DNA of 64,000 bases from Mariprofundus sp. UBA1536 (GCA_002323245.1 DCPU01000016.1:108445-172444), one strand, 5' to 3'; positions 243 to 37,614 are shown, counted from the stretch's first letter. Notes: generated by a model from the letters alone, not told the origin. Translations and numbers: made by a program.

Positions 243-273
243 GACCTGAATCACTTTCTAACATGAATCATCT

Positions 274-500
274 GTTCATTTTTGGGCAGCCAAAAACGAA
301 CCAAAAAGCTGCCCTTAAACAGCTGCGTACTTCCTTCACTTACAGCCATAAAAAGGGCGCGTGATACTGCGCTTTTCCTTTTTATGCCTGACGTTCCGGC
401 GCAGCTGTAACAAGGGAGGAGTTCCCTTCTCTTTTATTCTATTGATTCCAAGAAAACAAAAAAACTTCGCGTAACTTTGCGTTCTCTGCGGTGAAAGAAC
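274..500 (+). repeat. structured intergenic repeat, copy A (5' hairpin module + long nested hairpin + triple decamer)
   Basis: Shares the core CTTAAACAGCTGCGT..TCCTTCACTTACAGCC..GCCTGACG..GCAGCTGTAACAAGGGAG and a 3' triple decamer (464-493) with 27204-27380 and 37421-37614. The first 43 nt (274-316, hairpin GGGCAGC-N17-GCTGCCC) are identical to 37421-37463. Perfect nested stems at 319-327/400-408 and 347-356/377-386. Confidence 0.85.
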
Positions 501-3404: not shown

Positions 3405-4438
3405 GAAAGGATTCCTTGGCTCATACGCTCAAATTCTTGCGCAGAGAAGTTGGTTAAAACAGGTAGTGAAACATTATGCTGCCATTGCAAATCAGTTTGC
3501 CTGCATAATGTTTTACCGCTGTGGTGAAGCGGCTGAATCACAGGTTTGCTGGCGCCAATGCCCAAGGCCTGAAAAGCAGCGATACAGTCTTCAGCGCTAT
3601 TGATGCAACGCACAATAAAGCGAAAATGATTGCCAGTGGTGCCCGCTTGGCTGGAAATCCACGTGGCAGAAGTATTTTCAACTAACGCTGCAAACGCCTT
3701 GGTGATTTCTTGCCGTTTGCCCAATTCATATTTAGCTACCAACAAGCGCTGTCTAGCCAAGGTTGCATGCATATTCGATAACTGATGATGGCCGGCATAC
3801 GCTTGAGAAATATCAGCACGGTCAGGGTCAGTCATGTTGCGTATTTTGGCAATAATATGTTCATCTCGGCTGGCAATAAATCCACCATAGGCGCCGCCCC
3901 AAGGTTTGGTGGCATATAAAGAGCCAATGGTCATATCCCCAAAGCTGCCCGCAGCTTTGTCTGCCAAACTGCCGCCCACTGATTGGGCAATATCTTCAAT
4001 CACTGGGCAAGGGAAGGTTTCAGCTGCAAGGGGCTCAATCATGCCAAAGGGATGAACAAGAATAAGGACATCAGCCATCGCAGCTTGGGCAAAAGCATGG
4101 TCTTTGTTCATGCACAAAAACGCATCGCAATCGATAAAGAGTGGAATACCACCAATGTGTTTCACGGCAAATAAAAGGGAGGCGCAGGCATAGCTGCTCA
4201 TCGCCACACGTGGTTGTTGTTTGCCTGCAGTGAGGTGGCGCAATGCCAGCATTAAGGCATGGGTACCTGAATCGATAGCTAGGACAAAAGGGATATTGAG
4301 CGCGGCGCTGATGTCGGCTTCTAAGGCTGTGGTTTCCTCGCCTTGGGCCAGCATTTGTGAGTGCACGGTTTGTTTGGCAGCTTGCTCGAAAGGCGCATCA
4401 AAAACAGGGCGAGAATGGGGAATCAAAGGAAGGTTCAA
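3395..4438 (-). CDS. DegT/DnrJ/EryC1/StrS-family sugar aminotransferase
   Basis: Family pattern IPHSRP..., DSGTHALMLAL and a PLP-fold core. Start is uncertain. ATG 4537 would overlap the upstream gene by 73 nt. TTG 4438 or 4426, just before the conserved LIPHSRP, is more plausible. Confidence 0.8.
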   Translation of the reverse strand: MNLPLIPHSRPVFDAPFEQAAKQTVHSQMLAQGEETTALEADISAALNIPFVLAIDSGTHALMLALRHLTAGKQQPRVAMSSYACASLLFAVKHIGGIPLFIDCDAFLCMNKDHAFAQAAMADVLILVHPFGMIEPLAAETFPCPVIEDIAQSVGGSLADKAAGSFGDMTIGSLYATKPWGGAYGGFIASRDEHIIAKIRNMTDPDRADISQAYAGHHQLSNMHATLARQRLLVAKYELGKRQEITKAFAALVENTSATWISSQAGTTGNHFRFIVRCINSAEDCIAAFQALGIGASKPVIQPLHHSGKTLCRQTDLQWQHNVSLPVLTNFSAQEFERMSQGILSCL

Positions 4439-10757: not shown

Positions 10758-12173
10758 TTAGTCGATCAAAGGGTTGATGCTTGGATTTTCAAGAAAGCTT
10801 TTGACCTGCACCAAAAATTGCACGGCATCTTTACCATCAATCAATCGATGATCATACGACAAGGCGATATACATCATGGGTCTAATCACCATGGTATCTT
10901 GCTCAACAACCACACGTTTTAGAATGGTGTGCATGCCAAGAATGCCGCTTTGTGGCGTATTCAAGATGGGGGTGGAAAGCATGGAGCCAAACACACCACC
11001 ATTGGTAATGGAAAAAGTGCCGCCCTGCATATCTTCGGGTTTAAGTTTGCCTTCGCGGGCTTTGCCGGCCAGTTCGAGTACGCCCTGCTCAATTTCACCA
11101 AAACTTTTTAGGCCAACATCGCGTAACACAGGTACAATTAAGCCCGTATCAGTAGAGACGGCCACGCCCATATCAATGTAGTTGTGATACAACACATCAT
11201 CGCCAGCAATTTGGGCATTGAGGCTAGGAAATTGACCGCAAGCTTGGGCACAAGCTTTGATGAAAAACGACATAAAGCCTAATTTGCAGCCATATTTTGC
11301 TACAAATTCATCTTGGTATTTGCTGCGTAAGTCCATCACAGCTTGCAAGTTTACCTCATTGAATGTGGTGAGAATCGCAGCGGTGTTTTGTGCTTCTTTC
11401 AAACGCGTGGCGATGCGCTTGCGCAACCTTGTCATGGGCACAGGGATTTGCTCGCGATCAGGTATATCCATGTCGTGTTCAGACGCGGACTCCACAGGTT
11501 CTTTTTTAAGGGTAATCACCTTGGCATCTGGCTGTGCTTCTTTGGGAGCGGGGGAGGCTGAGGTGTCAATAATGCCCACCACTTGCCCTGGCTCTACGGT
11601 ATCATCGACGTTAAAGCGTTGCTCTTTAAGTACCCCGCTTTCAGTGGCTGTGATTTCCATAGTGATTTTATCGCTTTCGATTTCAGCAACAATATCATCC
11701 ACTTCAACCGCTTCGCCCACATTTTTAAGCCAGCTGATGAGTGTGGCTTCAGTTTCAGACTCGCCCAAATGGGGCACTTTGATTTCAAACATTTGCCCAG
11801 TTTTTGAAGATGATTTCTTCACTTCGGGCTTTGCTGTGGTTGCTTTTCTGGCAGCTGCTTTTTCAGCTACTGGTGCAGGCGCTTCTTTAGCTTCAGCTTC
11901 TTCAGCCGCAGGCGCGGAGTTTTTTACATTGGCCACTGCATCGGTATCAATCAATCCAATCACTTGCCCAGGTTCTACCGTGGCATCCACTGCAAATTTT
12001 TGTTCGCTTAACACACCGCTTTCTGTGGCTGTGATTTCCATGGTGATTTTATCACTTTCAATTTCAGCAACAATATCATCCACTTCGACTGGGTCGCCTA
12101 CATTTTTCAGCCAGCTAATCAGCGTGGCTTCGGTTTCCGATTCACCCAAATGGGGCACTTTAATCTCAAACAT
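10758..12173 (-). CDS. sucB: 2-oxoglutarate dehydrogenase E2 (dihydrolipoyllysine succinyltransferase) with two tandem lipoyl domains
   Basis: Two copies of [26 protein letters not shown]...[11 protein letters not shown], Ala/Pro/Lys linkers and the catalytic DHRLIDG. ATG 12173 is preferred. It overlaps the sucA stop. Confidence 0.92.
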
Positions 12174-23039: not shown

Positions 23040-24095
23040 TTATGCGGCAACCTTGCTATACCAAGTCGCTCTAGCCTTTCCGTGACGTTCAATAAGCCCA
23101 AGGTTTATGAGCTCAGCCATTCTATTCTTCACAGTAGGCTTGGAAACATTGGTGATTAATGCATAAGCCTCAGATATCGTGATTCTCCCATGCGTATCAA
23201 GGTGCTGCAGAATCACCGAACATTCCTTAGAAAGGTGATTGTATTGTGCTAGGGTATCTGTTTTTGCTTTGAGATGATCTTTCTGCCGTTTTAATGAGCG
23301 TAGAAAGAAGTTCAGCCAGGGTAGCCAGTCAGTTTCACCCTTCAGCGTTTTCTGTGTTCTTTGCAAAGCCAAGTAATAAGCATCTTTATTCTTTTCAACA
23401 ATACTTTCTAATGAGCTGTAGGGAATATAGGCATACCCCGCCTTGAGCATGAGTAGAGAAATCAAAACACGGGAAAGCCTGCCATTTCCATCCTGGAATG
23501 GATGAATGGCCAAAAAGACCACATTAAATACCGCTATCACAATGAGTGGGTGGTAGCTTTTATCTTCTAAGCACTCCCTCGCCCAATATACCAATTCCTG
23601 CATTTGTTTTGGCGTATCAAAAGCTGATGTGGTTTCAAAAACCACACCTAAACTTTTACCTGCCGCATCAAAAGCTTCAACACTGTTTGAGTGCTTTTTA
23701 TATTCGCCTCTATGCCGTGTATCTTTGTTTGAGTGTCTAAGTAAACCGATATGAAGTTGCTTGATATAATTCTCTGAAATTGAAATATGTTCAAAATTCT
23801 CAAACACAGTTTCCATCACTTCAGCATAACCGATGACTTCTTGCTCATCCCTATGGGCAAAAGACTGTTGACCAACCTGGCCTAGTAAAGATTCAATCTC
23901 ATTATCTGAAAGTTTTGAGCCTTCAATGCGGGTAGAGGAACCAATGCTTTCAATCGTAGCCACATGGCGAAGCTTGGTTAGATAATCAGGGTTAAGGTTG
24001 TTTTTTGCCTTCCAGCCACCATTAAATTCATCAATTTCAGAGATGATTCTCAATAGTTCAGGGGTTATGATTAGGTTCGTTAAGTTCATATTCAT
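23040..24095 (-). CDS. class II Fic-family protein (AMPylase-type) with C-terminal winged-HTH
   Basis: Active-site HPFQDGNGRLSR. N-terminal inhibitory-helix motif STRIEG ((S/T)xxxE(G/N)). C-terminal wHTH-like TVKNRMAELINLGLIERHG. Confidence 0.88.
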   Translation of the reverse strand: MNMNLTNLIITPELLRIISEIDEFNGGWKAKNNLNPDYLTKLRHVATIESIGSSTRIEGSKLSDNEIESLLGQVGQQSFAHRDEQEVIGYAEVMETVFENFEHISISENYIKQLHIGLLRHSNKDTRHRGEYKKHSNSVEAFDAAGKSLGVVFETTSAFDTPKQMQELVYWARECLEDKSYHPLIVIAVFNVVFLAIHPFQDGNGRLSRVLISLLMLKAGYAYIPYSSLESIVEKNKDAYYLALQRTQKTLKGETDWLPWLNFFLRSLKRQKDHLKAKTDTLAQYNHLSKECSVILQHLDTHGRITISEAYALITNVSKPTVKNRMAELINLGLIERHGKARATWYSKVAA

Positions 24096-24107
24096 CAGTA
24101 TTATTGG

Positions 24108-24161
24108 TTATCCGCTTATCCGATATTATCCAATTTTATCCAATAATCAAATAAATTATCC
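24108..24161. promoter_or_regulatory. array of five direct TTATCC repeats upstream of the Fic gene
   Basis: TTATCC starts at 24108, 24116, 24126, 24136 and 24156. The last four are in 10-bp register. The array lies 13-66 nt upstream of Fic ATG 24095. Confidence 0.6.
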
Positions 24162-24362
24162 CATGGCATAGTTTTGTCTCGTAAATCCATCTTTGGGAGA
24201 ACTAAAATGGATCTGCTTATAAAATATCAAGTTATGAAAGCCTGGTACCATTTTCCCTTACGTTTTCACCATATATAGACTCAAATAAATTGATTTATAG
24301 GGCATTTGGTGAGATTGTTTTTTTGCTTCACGTTTTCAAACACCCTAGGTCGAAAGCGGATG

Positions 24363-27096: not shown

Positions 27097-27131
27097 GAAA
27101 ATGCCGAGCCCCAGGGTTCGGCATTTTTGTT
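27097..27131 (+). terminator. rho-independent terminator of rpsU
   Basis: Stem ATGCCGA (27101-27107) / TCGGCAT (27118-27124) followed by a T-run. Confidence 0.75.
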
Positions 27132-27203
27132 TGTGCTTTTTGTAAAACGGGGTGAAACACGTCTGTAGCCAAAGGAGCTTACCTTATGTCCCTGACCCGT
27201 ACA

Positions 27204-27380
27204 CTTAAACAGCTGCGTTTGTCCTTCACTTACAGCCAGAAAAAGAGCGCGTGTTACTGCGCTTATCCTTTTTCAGCCTGACGCTCTGGTGCATCTGTAA
27301 CAAGGGAGAGGGTGAATCCCCCTACCAACTTATATATTCCGACGAAAAAAACTTCGCGTAACTTCGCGTCCTTTGCGGTG
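27204..27380 (+). repeat. structured intergenic repeat, copy B
   Basis: Same core and nested hairpins as copy A. Stem 27239-27245/27268-27274 carries G27239-C27274 where copy A has T349-A384. Triple decamer ACTTCGCGTA ACTTCGCGTC CTTTGCGGTG at 27351-27380. Confidence 0.85.
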
Positions 27381-27399: not shown

Positions 27400-28569
27400 T
27401 TAAACCAAGGTTAGTAGTGTGATTTCTGGTTCAGTTCCCAGGCGCACGGGCGGGCCCCAGTAGCCGGTGCCGCGGCTGACGTAAATCCATGTTTTATCTT
27501 GGTGTTTGTGCAGGCCTTCGATATAGGGGTTGGCCATTTTGGCGATGAAGTTCCATGGGTAATACTGGCCGCCGTGGGTGTGGCCGGAAATTTGTAAATC
27601 AAATCCTGCTTCGGCGGCGGCATCAATGCTTTTGGGTTGATGCGCCAATAAGATTTTTACATCGGCTTGTTCAGCTTTATGAAGCGCTTTTTTTGGGTCG
27701 GATAAATGCTCAGCCTTATATTGATGGGCGCGGTAATCGGTGACGCCTGCCAGCAACAAGCGGCTGCCTTCGTGGTTGATGATGCGGTGTTCATTAATCA
27801 AATTGGTAAAACCAAGGAGAGCCGTTTCTTCCAGCCAGTCGTCCACGCCTGAATAATATTCATGGTTACCCGTAATAAAGTATTTGCCGTAGGTGGATTG
27901 CAGCTCTGCCAAGGGGGCAACATCGGGGCGCAAATGCACCACTGAGCCATCCACCAAATCACCAGTCATGACAATAATATCAGGCTTTAGGGCGTTGATT
28001 TGTTCGACGATGCGTTGCACATGATGGCGCTTAATCATGGGGCCAATATGCAGGTCGGTGAATTGCACAATGCGCAGGTTCTGCAGGCTTTGGGGTACAT
28101 TACCCACAGGCACTTTCACTTCTTTGATGGTGGCATCTTGCAAGGCTTGTTGCACGCCAAAACCAGCCAAAGCGCCTGTGCCACCGAGCAGGCTAAAGTG
28201 GAAAGTGCTTTTCATCAGATTGCGGCGGTCTTCATCATAGGCATTGTCGCAAGACGTTTGCTTTAACAAGCAAAGTTTCTTGGCTGTGAAGCGGGTAAAA
28301 TCGGCAAGCAGGTAGCCAATAAAGACAACTGAGAAAATGCCCATATTGATATATACAAACCAAGACAAGGAATCACCAAAGCTGGTTTCCATATCGTTGA
28401 AGCGCAAAATAAAGGGGAGAGGCGAAGCCAACCAGCAGGTAAAGAAATAAAGGATAATAGCAATTTGCATGGCCTTATTGGCATGGAATGCTTGGTAAAC
28501 ACGGGAGCCAACATAACCATACATAATGGCAAGCAGCAGCAGCGATACGATCAAAAAGACTGGGATCAT
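27400..28569 (-). CDS. membrane-anchored calcineurin-like metallophosphoesterase
   Basis: N-terminal TM segments. Motifs FTDLHIG, TGDLVDG, GNHEY, GHTHGGQ. Confidence 0.88.
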   Translation of the reverse strand: MIPVFLIVSLLLLAIMYGYVGSRVYQAFHANKAMQIAIILYFFTCWLASPLPFILRFNDMETSFGDSLSWFVYINMGIFSVVFIGYLLADFTRFTAKKLCLLKQTSCDNAYDEDRRNLMKSTFHFSLLGGTGALAGFGVQQALQDATIKEVKVPVGNVPQSLQNLRIVQFTDLHIGPMIKRHHVQRIVEQINALKPDIIVMTGDLVDGSVVHLRPDVAPLAELQSTYGKYFITGNHEYYSGVDDWLEETALLGFTNLINEHRIINHEGSRLLLAGVTDYRAHQYKAEHLSDPKKALHKAEQADVKILLAHQPKSIDAAAEAGFDLQISGHTHGGQYYPWNFIAKMANPYIEGLHKHQDKTWIYVSRGTGYWGPPVRLGTEPEITLLTLV

Positions 28570-28791
28570 GTGTCGTCCTTATGGAAAATTTTTCAAGGCA
28601 TGAGTGCTTATGCTTGGGCACGCAAATGAAGAAAGTATTAAATTTGGAGCGAGATATGTCACAACAGGATATTCAGAGTCGACCGAATATGATAGCCAAG
28701 CCTACGCCTTGGGATTTGGTGGCATCGGCATCGACCTTGGATTCATCTAAAAATATTCGCTGTAATTTTACTCATACAGACAAAGCTTGTC

Positions 28792-28811
28792 ACTTTTGTG
28801 CGCACAAAAGT
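28792..28811. repeat. perfect 20-bp palindrome ACTTTTGTGCGCACAAAAGT
   Basis: Read directly from the sequence. Lies 16 nt upstream of the truncated repeat copy D in a 316-nt intergenic region. Confidence 0.8.
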
Positions 28812-28827
28812 AACGTAAAAAGCGACC

Positions 28828-28860
28828 CTTAAACAGCTGCGTTTTTCCTTTACTTACATT
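28828..28860 (+). repeat. structured intergenic repeat, truncated copy D (5' part of core only)
   Basis: CTTAAACAGCTGCGTTTTTCCTTTACTTACATTC compared with copy B CTTAAACAGCTGCGTTTGTCCTTCACTTACAGCC. Similarity ends after about 33 nt. Confidence 0.7.
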
Positions 28861-28885
28861 CAGATTATTTTGACTATTGCATATA

Positions 28886-29374
28886 TTAGTCGTGTTTGCC
28901 GATGTAACCTTTGGGGCGGATGGCGACGGTGTTTTTGATTTCGGTGCATACTTTGCCGTCGGCTCGGGTGTAAACCATCGTAAAGGTTGGGGTTGAGCGG
29001 CCATGAGCTTCAAGCTCGCTGCGAATCTGGGCTTCGATGGCTTCGTCAAACGCTAAGTGCAGGGTTAAATCGGAGCTGCCGACGCGGATGAAGTCTAAGG
29101 TGAGGTGCTTGGTGGCGACCCGATAACCGGGAAATTTTTGGGCGCAGACCAAGGCTGGAACGGGGTCGGCAAGGCTGGCTTGGTAACCACCAAACATATT
29201 GCCTGCTGCATTTTTCGACATCCAATTCAGTGGCAACAGCAATTCCAATTTGCGCATATCATCATCAAGTTTGATCACTTTCACGCGCATCAAAAAGAAG
29301 GGCAGAAATAAGGACAATTTCCGCTTGTTGGAGAGGAAGGGTAAATTGCTAATCAGCTGAATATGCCTGGACAA
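28886..29374 (-). CDS. hotdog-fold thioesterase (PaaI / DUF4442-like)
   Basis: Pattern NAAGNMFGGYQASLADP and the size are typical of PaaI-type thioesterases. Start position uncertain. Confidence 0.6.
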   Translation of the reverse strand: MSRHIQLISNLPFLSNKRKLSLFLPFFLMRVKVIKLDDDMRKLELLLPLNWMSKNAAGNMFGGYQASLADPVPALVCAQKFPGYRVATKHLTLDFIRVGSSDLTLHLAFDEAIEAQIRSELEAHGRSTPTFTMVYTRADGKVCTEIKNTVAIRPKGYIGKHD

Positions 29375-37250: not shown

Positions 37251-37420
37251 CCAATGTTTTTCTCTTGTGTTTTCTTTGGTGGTTCCTGTCCGATGATACG
37301 TTTGCGCATGTGTTTCTCCTCTGACGAAGCTTTGCGATTTGGACTATAGACCTATCTTCACTATTTTACATTCTCTCTCAGTGCTTAGGTTAACGAGTAT
37401 TGATGACCTTTTGGTGGGAT

Positions 37421-37614
37421 GTTCATTTTTGGGCAGCCAAAAACGAACCAAAAAGCTGCCCTTTACAATCTGCTTGTTTCCTTCGCTGCACTATGGAAGC
37501 GGGGCGAAAAGTTTTTTCGCTTTATCCCTTCTCCCATAGCACGACTACGGCGCAGCTTGAACAAAGGGAATCCGCGTCTACTAAACTTTGCGTAACTTCG
37601 CGTACTTCGCGGTT
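37421..37614 (+). repeat. structured intergenic repeat, copy C
   Basis: 37421-37463 is identical to 274-316. The core is diverged but keeps the nested hairpin (37491-37496/37534-37539 and 37504-37510/37514-37520). Triple decamer ACTTTGCGTA ACTTCGCGTA CTTCGCGGTT at 37585-37614. Confidence 0.8.

What the first reader, a model, noticed from the sequence alone, without database searches (positions are those of the whole stretch)
274..500. Unassigned family of ~190-230-nt structured intergenic repeats (copy A; others at 27204-27380, 37421-37614, fragment 28828-28860)
Four co-oriented intergenic copies share the core CTTAAACAGCTGCGT..TCCTTCACTTACAGCC..AAAAAG-GCGCGTG.TACTGCGC..CCTTTTT..GCCTGACG..GCAGCTGTAACAAGGGAG. 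Copy A folds into three nested stems: 319-327/400-408 (9 bp, perfect), 347-356/377-386 (10 bp, perfect) and 357-360/369-372 (4 bp, 8-nt loop). Copy B keeps this architecture with a compensatory pair change (T349-A384 in A, G27239-C27274 in B). Copy C keeps the architecture with a different inner-hairpin sequence. Every full copy ends in three tandem 10-nt units (ACTTYGCGTA / ACTTYGCGTN / CTYYGCGGTK; 464-493 in A), spaced one helical turn apart. I see no transposase, clear terminal inverted repeats or target duplication. No T-tract follows the hairpins, so these are not simple terminators. I do not recognise the element as REP/BIME, ERIC, attC or any ncRNA family I know. Possibilities are paralogous sRNA genes, structured UTR elements, a non-autonomous mobile element, or a DNA site array for a sequence-specific protein.
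Basis: seen in the sequence. Interest (0 to 1): 0.7.

Follow-up and report, generated by a model that had tools for sequence, protein, structure and literature searches.

The report
Mosaic hairpin repeats ending in decamer array
A small family of non-coding, hairpin-forming repeats has spread into gaps between genes in one lineage of iron-oxidising Zetaproteobacteria, and its three-decamer tail is one arm of a repeat signature that in many bacterial phyla brackets small gene cassettes resembling ribosomal-RNA intervening sequences.

Summary
Four co-oriented, non-coding copies exist: A 273-493, B 27204-27380, C 37420-37614 and D 28787-28887. The stated stems and the T349-A384 to G-C compensatory change are exact. 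B is 5'-truncated and D 3'-truncated by deletions; a 93-97% relative has both intact. Relatives at 65-80% protein identity have no element at any of the four sites, so the copies are lineage-specific gains. Each copy is a mosaic of a 5' hairpin (two types), a long irregular hairpin P0-P3 supported by covariation, a variable linker and the triple decamer. The centre of the long hairpin is an A-tract, GC hairpin and T-tract, which looks like a bidirectional terminator. No Rfam, attC, MITE or REP membership test is met. The core occurs only in this lineage. The decamer array is widespread. In many phyla it occurs as inverted pairs bracketing 40-470 nt of cargo, sometimes a GxxExxY nuclease gene or a 23S-rRNA-IVS four-helix-bundle gene. 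Genes of these two families picked independently of the repeats are bracketed by comparable inverted tandem-repeat arms in 6 of 14 cases, against 0 of 50 control genes. My best reading is a one-armed, non-autonomous, REP/BIME-like selfish element related to IVS-type cassettes. Neither the mobilising enzyme nor any RNA role is shown.

The parts
273..493 (+). Copy A, full length. It lies between the convergent genes pyrC (DHOase, ends at 242, + strand) and yggT (539-835, - strand).
   Evidence: The site has no spacer at all in a 74% relative, L142.
274..301 (+). 5' hairpin hp1, A-type: GTTCATTTTTGG-GCAG-CCAAAAACGAAC. An alternative pairing is GGGCAGC 284-290 with GCTGCCC 308-314. The 44 nt from 273 to 316 are 100% identical to 37420-37463 in copy C.
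312..416 (+). Core long hairpin of copy A. P0 is 312-316/412-416, P1 is 319-327/400-408, P2 is 343-356/377-390 and P3 is 357-360/369-372. The conserved unpaired stretches are TnnnTCCTTCACTTA and ACGYTCYGG.
347..386 (.). Centre of the core: A-run, GC hairpin, T-run. This looks like an intrinsic terminator when read on either strand.
   Evidence: for copy A (+ strand match over 353-376 plus tail). for copy B (matches on both strands, 27245-27264).
412..435 (+). Third hairpin hp3, AAGGGAGGAG-TTCC-CTTCTCTTTT. It is terminator-like in A. B has GAGGG-TGAAT-CCCCC at the same place. C and the full D copy lack it.
464..493 (+). Triple decamer array of copy A, ACTTCGCGTA ACTTTGCGTT CTCTGCGGTG, preceded by an A-run at 458-464. 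It ends 45 nt from the yggT stop codon.
27204..27380 (+). Copy B, 5'-truncated (core, hp3, linker and array 27351-27380). It lies between rpsU (ends 27073, with its own terminator at 27097-27128) and a metallophosphoesterase gene (27400-28569, - strand). The Shine-Dalgarno sequence plus ATG at 27171-27190 is the stump of a deleted rsgA gene, not a gene of the element.
28787..28887 (+). Copy D, 3'-truncated. It has hp1 of the D-type (CACTTTTGTGC-GCACAAAAGTA) and the first ~60 nt of the core. The full copy, with the array AAACTTCGCGTAACTCTGCGTACTCAGCGGTT, is present in the 97% relative L124.
37420..37614 (+). Copy C, full length. It has A-type hp1, a divergent core that keeps the same architecture, a short linker and the array at 37585-37614. 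It lies between the rsmB stop (37639, - strand) and the start of a 154-aa gene (37310, - strand).

Best explanation
The copies are members of a lineage-restricted family of non-autonomous, non-coding, mosaic intergenic elements. They resemble REP/BIME elements in lifestyle. The host is an uncultured Zetaproteobacterium.

A full unit is about 195-225 nt and has four parts:
- a 5' A/T-stem hairpin;
- a long irregular hairpin whose centre is an A-tract, GC hairpin and T-tract (bidirectional-terminator-like);
- a variable linker;
- one 'arm' of three CTYYGCG decamers ending in GCGGT.

The arm is the same module that, in Zetaproteobacteria and many other phyla, occurs as inverted pairs. The pair is (ACCGCAAAG..)n, then cargo, then (..CTTTGCGGT)n. 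The two arms can form a stem of about 28 bp around short cargo, which is sometimes a GxxExxY (PD-(D/E)XK) gene or a 23S-rRNA-IVS-type four-helix-bundle gene. That is the architecture of rRNA intervening sequences.

Inferred mechanism: the elements are selfish DNA that entered very short spacers at gene 3' ends. They are copied and reshuffled through their hairpin and array modules by a factor supplied in trans, which I have not identified. They are tolerated because they bring termination or processing structures for the flanking transcripts.

Shown here: the repeats, the structure with covariation, lineage-specific presence, mosaicism, adjacent deletions, and the arm being shared with bracketed cassettes.

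Inferred only: mobility as such, the enzyme, and any RNA-level termination or processing.
For: - Presence and absence. All four sites lack the element in relatives at 65-80% protein identity. The rpsU-MPE gap is 71 or 145 nt against 326 nt in the window. The 162aa-MPE gap is 76 or 92 nt against 316 nt. pyrC and yggT overlap, against a 296-nt gap here. rsmB is followed after 5 nt by the next gene. A 93-97% relative carries copies at B, C and D.
- Mosaicism. hp1 is 100% identical between A and C while their cores are about 60% alike. B in the relative carries the D-type hp1. Apical parts and linkers come in 2-3 types.
- Structure. P1 and P2 are kept through changes on both sides. Comparing A with C, two P1 pairs and four P2 pairs changed on both sides. 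Three positions changed on both arms between the two B orthologues and are standard pairs in the L124 copy; two of them are mismatches in the window copy.
- No coding potential is conserved, no promoter is found, and the centre is terminator-like.
- The array is shared. The genome scan gave 99 loci, many from Mariprofundus and Ghiorsea, mostly as inverted pairs around 40-470 nt.
- Cargo genes inside such pairs: a GxxExxY gene (TIGR04256, E=4e-40) and 23S_rRNA_IVP genes.
- Independent test. 6 of 14 GxxExxY or IVP genes taken from plasmids have inverted flanking arms matching at 16 or more of 20 positions. None of 50 window genes does.
- Orientation rule. In all four sites the purine-rich form of the arm follows the stop codon of the - strand host gene by 19-45 nt. 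Gene-carrying cassettes show the same arrangement: the purine-rich arm lies directly upstream of the cassette gene, which is co-oriented with the flanking host genes.
- Literature anchor. The Coxiella IVS carries an S23p/IVP ORF, a 28-bp terminal stem cut by RNase III, and tandem heptamers of variable number at its 5' end (PMC4990558).
Against: - The window copies have only one arm, so they cannot form the long bracketing stem that defines the cassettes. Their other end (hp1) is unrelated to the arm.
- No mobilising enzyme was identified. The only Y1 (RAYT-like) transposase on the contig is flanked by unrelated inverted repeats.
- Exact insertion boundaries, and therefore any target-site signature, could not be defined. 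The empty sites are too diverged to align.
- Copy number is low as far as it can be seen: 4 copies in 84 kb. The metagenome scan returned only the copy-A locus, and that collection evidently lacks the B and D contigs.
- Gain by translocation together with neighbouring genes (rsgA, a methyltransferase) is an alternative to element-only insertion.
- The terminator-like hairpins are weak (4-5 GC pairs, interrupted T-run) and untested.
- Counts of G.U against A.C do not identify a functional strand. In the window stems, by my hand count, 2 favour the + strand and 3 the - strand. In cassettes, 11 against 4 favour the sense strand, with crude gene calls.
Confidence: 0.5

Rival explanations
1. The elements are cis-acting RNA elements of the flanking genes, retained for function rather than selfish spread. 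Candidate roles are 3'-UTR or intergenic structures that terminate convergent transcription, protect the 3' end as some REPs do, or are cut by RNase III.
For: - They sit 19-45 nt after the stop codons of - strand genes, and three of the four sites are convergent gene ends.
- The centre of the core is an A-tract, GC hairpin and T-tract on both strands.
- The stems are kept by compensatory change.
- Folding z-scores for copy A are -3.0 on the + strand and -4.6 on the - strand.
- Copy C is 98.5% identical between strains whose flanks are 94.4% identical.
Against: - Relatives manage with 0-145-nt spacers and no element.
- rpsU keeps its own strong terminator right next to copy B.
- The window strain has deleted parts of B and D.
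- B differs by 20% between strains whose flanks are 93% identical.
- The whole C intergenic region, not just the element, is 98% conserved.
- The folding z-scores for B (+0.8) and C (-1.5) are unremarkable.
- This rival is compatible with the main explanation rather than exclusive of it.
Confidence: 0.2
2. The triple decamer is a DNA operator array. A sequence-specific protein binds three sites on one helix face, and the rest of the element is incidental.
For: - The period is 10 nt.
- The units have polarity (two ACTTYGCGTA units, then CYYTGCGGT), and this is conserved across copies and across species.
- A second small insert lands at exactly the same position, CCT^TTGCGG, in two genera. This suggests the site is specifically recognised.
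Against: - The arrays lie at gene 3' ends, not at promoters, and no promoter-like sites are nearby.
- Elsewhere the arrays come as inverted pairs around cargo, inside operons. That is not how operators are arranged.
- Unit sequence and period drift freely between lineages (CTCTGTG, CTTGGCG, GGGAAAA, AAGGTTY; periods 7-12) while complementarity between the two arms is kept. This points to pairing or end recognition rather than one conserved regulator.
Confidence: 0.1
3. The copies are inert debris. They would be decayed halves of ordinary two-armed cassettes, or remnants carried along by gene translocations, and would have no current activity.
For: - Two of the four window copies are truncated.
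- Deletions removed rsgA, a methyltransferase and part of D next to the elements.
- Only one arm is present.
- No GxxExxY or IVP gene is found in the window.
Against: - Four separate loci share the same one-armed architecture, so it was propagated in that form.
- The stems show compensatory rather than random change.
- The 44-nt hp1 is identical in A and C, which indicates recent exchange.
Confidence: 0.15

Closest known systems
REP / BIME elements (and REPINs) of Proteobacteria
   Same: Both are short, non-coding and strictly intergenic. Both form hairpins, are built as mosaics of modules, often sit between convergent genes or inside operons, and vary between strains. Inverted doublets around a spacer (REPIN-like) are the common form of the decamer arrays in other Zetaproteobacteria.
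   Different: There is no conserved 5' GTAG and no 20-40-nt REP palindrome. The arms are made of three tandem ~10-nt units. The RAYT-like gene on the contig is flanked by unrelated inverted repeats. The window copies have a single arm.
23S rRNA intervening sequences (IVS) with S23p / four-helix-bundle ORFs (Leptospira, Coxiella; PMC4990558)
   Same: In both, terminal inverted repeats of about 28 bp bracket a cargo that can be a 23S_rRNA_IVP gene. Tandem short repeats of variable number sit at the 5' arm. The stem is an RNase III substrate in the IVS, and the arms found here would form an equivalent stem.
   Different: The elements found here lie in mRNA spacers, not in rRNA helices 25 or 45. 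The cargo is usually non-coding. The window family has one arm only. RNase III cutting has not been tested.
MITEs (for example Correia elements of Neisseria)
   Same: Both are small non-autonomous repeats in intergenic DNA that can carry terminators or processing sites.
   Different: There are no terminal inverted repeats at the two ends of the window copies, no target-site duplication, and no cognate DDE transposase.
Integron attC sites
   Same: Both are imperfect hairpins of about 100 nt with a variable apical part. In the close relative, two copies sit directly 3' of extra genes (rsgA, a methyltransferase).
   Different: There are no R''/R' core sites (RYYYAAC / GTTRRRY) and no integron integrase or cassette array. 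The copies are dispersed between housekeeping genes.
Cyanobacterial STRR heptamer repeats
   Same: Both are tandem short units in intergenic DNA. The arms that bracket four-helix-bundle genes in Nostoc, Stanieria and Geminocystis plasmids are heptamer-type arrays.
   Different: The period here is 10 nt and the sequence and phylum differ. To my knowledge STRRs have not been described as inverted arms around cassettes.

Membership tests
Any Rfam family | Covariance-model match at the gathering score | tested here: not met
   Scanning the window gives only one tRNA. Copy A at E<=10 gives only chance-level hits of at most 21 bits. Eighteen array-bearing loci give no family on the arrays.
REP/BIME (RAYT-associated) | Conserved 5' GTAG followed by a 20-40-nt imperfect palindrome | tested here: not met
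   The sequences of hp1, core and array contain no such unit.
REP/BIME (RAYT-associated) | The genome's RAYT gene is flanked by the same repeats | tested here: not met
   A Y1_Tnp gene (NF047646, 69 bits, below the cut-off of 80) lies 3.3 kb beyond the window. Its flanks are the unrelated 20-bp inverted repeats GGGGACACAATACTTAATTA, which are absent from the window.
REP/BIME (RAYT-associated) | Tens to hundreds of copies per genome | not testable with these tools
   Only 84 kb of the genome could be read, and it holds 4 copies. The metagenome scan was uninformative.
MITE | Terminal inverted repeats plus target-site duplication | tested here: not met
   The left end (TGTTCATTTTTGG or TCACTTTTGTG) and the right end (..CTYTGCGGT) are unrelated, and no duplicated flank is seen.
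Integron attC | R'' RYYYAAC and R' GTTRRRY core sites at the hairpin base, in an integron context | tested here: not met
   The hairpin base is CCCTT-AA-ACAGCTGCG / CGCAGCTGT-AAC-AAGGG. There is no intI, and the only tyrosine recombinase nearby is the conserved DUF484-xerC pair.
IVS-type bracketed cassette (inverted tandem-repeat arms) | An arm made of tandem CTYYGYG-type units ending in GGT | tested here: met
   The same 19-mer and the same terminal unit occur in Mariprofundus and Ghiorsea cassettes.
IVS-type bracketed cassette (inverted tandem-repeat arms) | A second, inverted arm that can form a stem of about 28 bp around the cargo | tested here: not met
   The window holds only three arrays, all on the + strand and all unpaired. 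Folding does not pair the array with any partner.
IVS-type bracketed cassette (inverted tandem-repeat arms) | Excision of the bracketed RNA by RNase III | not testable with these tools
   This needs RNA end mapping. It is shown only for rRNA IVSs in the literature.
Rho-independent terminator | A GC-rich hairpin directly followed by a U-run | tested here: inconclusive
   The consensus scan hits the core centre in A and B (on both strands in B) and hp3 in A. It does not hit C, apart from a weak hairpin in the array. The stems have only 4-5 GC pairs and the T-run is interrupted.

The most novel reading that the evidence does not exclude
The triple decamer marks a cross-phylum class of hairpin-bracketed cassettes that I could not find described in the searched papers. 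In this class, inverted arms built of tandem 7-10-nt units enclose either non-coding cargo or one of two enigmatic small genes. The upstream arm is purine-rich and Shine-Dalgarno-like, and the downstream arm is its complement. The two genes are a GxxExxY PD-(D/E)XK nuclease and a 23S-rRNA-IVS four-helix-bundle protein.

These cassettes insert in sense orientation into operon spacers, for example fabD-[cassette]-fabG and tkt-[cassette]-gap. On this reading, rRNA intervening sequences are just the rRNA-resident subset of a general mobile cassette system. The window family is a one-armed, terminator-carrying offshoot of it.
Probability: 0.4. Interest if true: 0.75.

Novelty: new variant of a known kind. 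Interest (0 to 1): 0.55.

Why it matters
The window family on its own is a modest addition to the catalogue of bacterial intergenic repeats. It does document insertion and deletion dynamics in an uncultured iron-oxidiser.

The wider point is the decamer arm. It links the family to cassettes bracketed by inverted tandem-repeat arms in Zetaproteobacteria, Gammaproteobacteria, Alphaproteobacteria, Acidobacteriota, Gemmatimonadota, Bacteroidota, Cyanobacteria, Verrucomicrobiota, Cloacimonadota and others. Some of these cassettes carry GxxExxY or S23p/IVP genes.

How rRNA intervening sequences originate and move, and what these two very widespread small protein families do, are both open questions. 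A shared and easily recognisable cassette architecture outside rRNA would allow three direct tests:
- comparing filled and empty sites;
- asking whether the nuclease or the four-helix bundle binds or cuts the arms;
- mapping RNase III cuts.

Tried and rejected
- Rfam at the gathering threshold and at E<=10 found nothing.
- Small-protein reading. The Shine-Dalgarno sequence plus ATG before copy B looked like an XRE-type N-terminus. It is the stump of rsgA, left by a 1.1-kb deletion. No ORF is conserved between copies on either strand.
- attC, MITE and REP membership all fail on defining features (see the membership table).
- A RAYT-like Y1 transposase just outside the window was considered as the mobilising enzyme. 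Its flanking inverted repeats are unrelated to the family.
- The metagenome scan with the 20-nt core pattern returned only the copy-A locus and two chance coding hits. It gives no copy-number information.
- A covariance model of the core, searched over the window and 35 loci (26 from other Zetaproteobacteria), found only the known copies and their counterparts (the same contig or the 93-97% relative), plus one E=0.17 hit. The core is therefore lineage-restricted.
- I tried to identify the functional strand from G.U against A.C asymmetry. The result is not decisive (and my hand count).
- I looked for a degenerate left arm in hp1. There is only a vague resemblance (CGTAAAAAG against CGCAAAG), and I make no claim from it.
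- The PADLOC defence library gave no meaningful hit for the cargo proteins.
- Literature searches for GxxExxY, PDDEXK_3, TIGR02436 and IVS protein found no description of the bracketing arrays. The library is incomplete, so this is absence of evidence only.

Full report
**Observation.** The four copies are real and lie on the + strand. BLAST and repeat finding give three matches. A 314-418 matches B 27204-27308 at 88%. A 273-316 matches C 37420-37463 at 100%. A, B and D share the exact 15-mer CTTAAACAGCTGCGT. The triple-decamer pattern occurs three times against 0.06 expected. In B, however, the neighbouring pair is an A.A mismatch. Neither the window nor copy A matches any Rfam family.

**Source and context.** The flanking proteins are encoded identically on contigs MNZV01000015.1 (GCA_001873795.1) and DFBB01000025.1 (GCA_002366535.1) and on several groundwater metagenome contigs. 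The closest named homologues are Ghiorsea and Mariprofundaceae proteins at about 55-70% identity, so the host is an uncultured Zetaproteobacterium.
- Copy A lies between the convergent genes pyrC and yggT.
- Copy B lies between rpsU, which keeps its own strong terminator, and a metallophosphoesterase gene.
- Copy D lies between that gene's start and a 162-aa gene.
- Copy C lies between rsmB and a 154-aa gene.

In all four sites the array end faces the stop codon of a - strand gene, 19-45 nt away.

**Relatives: gains, truncations and mosaicism.**
- A strain with 93-97% identical proteins (L124, L127) carries copies at B, C and D.
- In that strain B and D are full length, and each lies directly 3' of an extra gene (rsgA, a UbiE-like methyltransferase).
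- Relative to it, the window has lost 1.1 kb (rsgA plus the 5' hairpin of B), 0.8 kb (the methyltransferase) and 139 nt (the 3' part of D).
- The apparent Shine-Dalgarno sequence plus ATG before B is therefore the rsgA stump.
- Relatives at 65-80% protein identity have no element at any site. The rpsU-MPE spacer is 71 or 145 nt, the 162aa-MPE spacer is 76 or 92 nt, rsmB is followed after 5 nt by the next gene, and pyrC and yggT overlap.
- The modules are shuffled. hp1 comes in two types: A and C are identical over 44 nt, while D and the relative's B share the other type. Apical regions come in three types and linkers in at least two.
- C is 98.5% identical between strains whose flanks are 94.4% identical, but the whole intergenic region is equally conserved. 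B is only about 80% identical against 93% flanks.

**Structure.** Each core is one long irregular hairpin:
- P0 is CCCTT/AAGGG.
- P1 is ACAGCTGCG/CGCAGCTGT.
- A conserved 5' bulge, TnnnTCCTTCACTTA, follows.
- P2 is CAGCCATAAAAAGG/CCTTTTTATGCCTG.
- The tip is variable, and the 3' bulge is ACGYTCYGG.

Covariation supports the stems:
- Copy C keeps P1 with two pairs changed on both sides. It keeps the six basal P2 pairs with four changed on both sides.
- The two B orthologues differ at three P2 positions on both arms. All three are standard pairs in the L124 copy, while two are mismatches in the window copy.
- On the model-fitted alignment, 85.7% of cells pair against 39-56% for slid partners. 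The covariation score is 0.298 against at most 0.164, and 0 of 500 shuffles reach it. With six sequences and a fitted alignment this is supportive, not conclusive.

The centre (A-run, GC hairpin, T-run) is picked up as terminator-like on the + strand in A and on both strands in B. No sigma-70-like promoter is found near any copy.

**The decamer array is not private to the family.** Scanning one genome per species for ACTTYGCGTAACTTYGCGT returned 99 loci. By my estimate about 17 would be expected by chance over 596 Gb, and the list may be capped.
- More than 25 loci are from Mariprofundus, Ghiorsea or other Zetaproteobacteria.
- Others come from Verrucomicrobiota (many per genome), Pyrinomonadaceae, Nostocales, Bacteroidia, Gammaproteobacteria, Leptospirales, Gemmatimonadota and more.
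- The end ...CTTTGCGGT is conserved across them.
- In most loci the array is one of an inverted pair: ACCGCAAAG-GACGCAAAG-TTACGCAAAGT, then 40-470 nt, then ACTTTGCGT-AACTTTGCGT-CCTTTGCGGT. The two arms match at 21-28 of 28 positions.
- Pairs sit in intergenic spacers, including inside operons, and sometimes occur in tandem.
- The cargo is usually non-coding. In L087 it is a GxxExxY gene between tkt and gap. In L090 it is two 23S_rRNA_IVP genes and one GxxExxY gene.
- Rfam has no family for these arrays.
- The core of the window family is absent from all these loci.

**Independent test.** I took GxxExxY and four-helix-bundle genes from the plasmid collection by protein similarity alone and read their flanks.
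- Bacteroides finegoldii has CCACAGAGGACGCAGAGGACACGGAGG ... CTCTGTGACCTCTGTGTCCTCTGTGGTGAA.
- Comparable arms occur in Bernardetia, Sphingomonas (fabD-[cassette]-fabG), Gemmatirosa, Nostoc (GGGAAAA-type arms), Stanieria (CAGAGGG/CCCTCTG), Geminocystis and Riemerella (AAGGTTY/RAACCTT).
- The upstream arm is always purine-rich and the downstream arm is its complement.
- Six of 14 genes have an inverted flank match of at least 16 of 20 positions. None of 50 window genes does, the maximum there being 15.
- The described Coxiella 23S IVS has the same layout: an S23p ORF, a 28-bp terminal stem cut by RNase III, and tandem heptamers of variable number (PMC4990558).
- I found no paper describing such arms outside rRNA. 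The searchable library is incomplete.

**Interpretation.** The window family is best read as a one-armed, non-coding, mosaic derivative related to these IVS-type cassettes. It is REP/BIME-like in lifestyle but fails the defining tests for REP, MITE and attC. Its spread into four minimal spacers, its module exchange and the adjacent deletions argue for selfish, recombinogenic DNA. The hairpins with compensatory change argue that single-stranded folding matters, whether in RNA or DNA. The terminator-like centre offers a reason why insertion between convergent genes is tolerated or even useful.

The following are not shown:
- transposition itself;
- the enzyme (the nearby RAYT-like gene has unrelated flanks);
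- the functional strand (one search gives 11 against 4 G.U in the sense orientation for cassettes, which is suggestive only);
- genome-wide copy number.

Noticed in passing
L139 14140-14802 (same contig as the window, about 3.3 kb beyond its right end): A 220-aa Y1_Tnp / RAYT-like transposase gene (NF047646, 69 bits, below the cut-off). It is flanked by perfect 20-bp inverted repeats, GGGGACACAATACTTAATTA / TAATTAAGTATTGTGTCCCC, and sits next to an RHS/YD-repeat gene. The repeats are absent from the window.
   Followed up: partly
L124 about 3835-3875 (- strand; copy B of the 97% relative) and L022 about 3885-3950 (- strand; Mariprofundus sp. EBB-1): A conserved insert of about 40 nt (GAAG[AG]TGAAT...GAGAGA..CTCCCCTGGGGGA) splits the third decamer at exactly CCT^TTGCGG in two different genera. 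It could be a tiny nested element with site specificity or an optional module of the arm.
   Followed up: partly
window 24107-24175: Five TTATCC boxes at about 10-nt spacing (GGTTATCCGCTTATCCGATATTATCCAATTTTATCCAATA...ATTATCCCA). They are DnaA-box-like and lie just upstream of a Fic-family gene (23043-24095, - strand).
   Followed up: partly
window 27131-27203 and 28581-28789: Gene stumps. The rsgA 5' region with its Shine-Dalgarno sequence and ATG is fused to copy B. The first ~100 nt of a UbiE-like methyltransferase are also present. Both genes are intact in the 97% relative L124, so the window strain has lost them at these positions.
   Followed up: yes
L090 1-4600 (Cloacimonadia MAG): A tandem run of bracketed cassettes: two identical 23S_rRNA_IVP genes and one GxxExxY gene. 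Each junction reads right arm (CTTGGCG x2, then CTGGCGGT), about 13 nt, then left arm (ACCGCAAAG AACGCTAAG). The layout resembles a cassette array.
   Followed up: partly
L148 (Pseudanabaena galeata plasmid): A four-helix-bundle gene sits between cas6 and cas4. It is flanked on both sides by long direct, not inverted, heptamer arrays: (AAAGCTA)n upstream and (AAAGCCA)n downstream.
   Followed up: no
window 11562-11792 and 11943-12173: A 231-nt direct repeat (81% identity) inside the 2-oxoacid dehydrogenase E2 gene. It corresponds to its two biotin/lipoyl domains and is an ordinary domain duplication.
   Followed up: partly
Right flanks of arrays in Mariprofundus loci (for example L003, L022, L091): The arms are followed by a conserved GGTGAAAGCCTTTGAC (mirrored as GTCAAAGGCTTTCACC on the left). 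The real terminal repeat of the two-armed cassettes may therefore be about 45 nt. The window copies share only GGTGAAAG.
   Followed up: no
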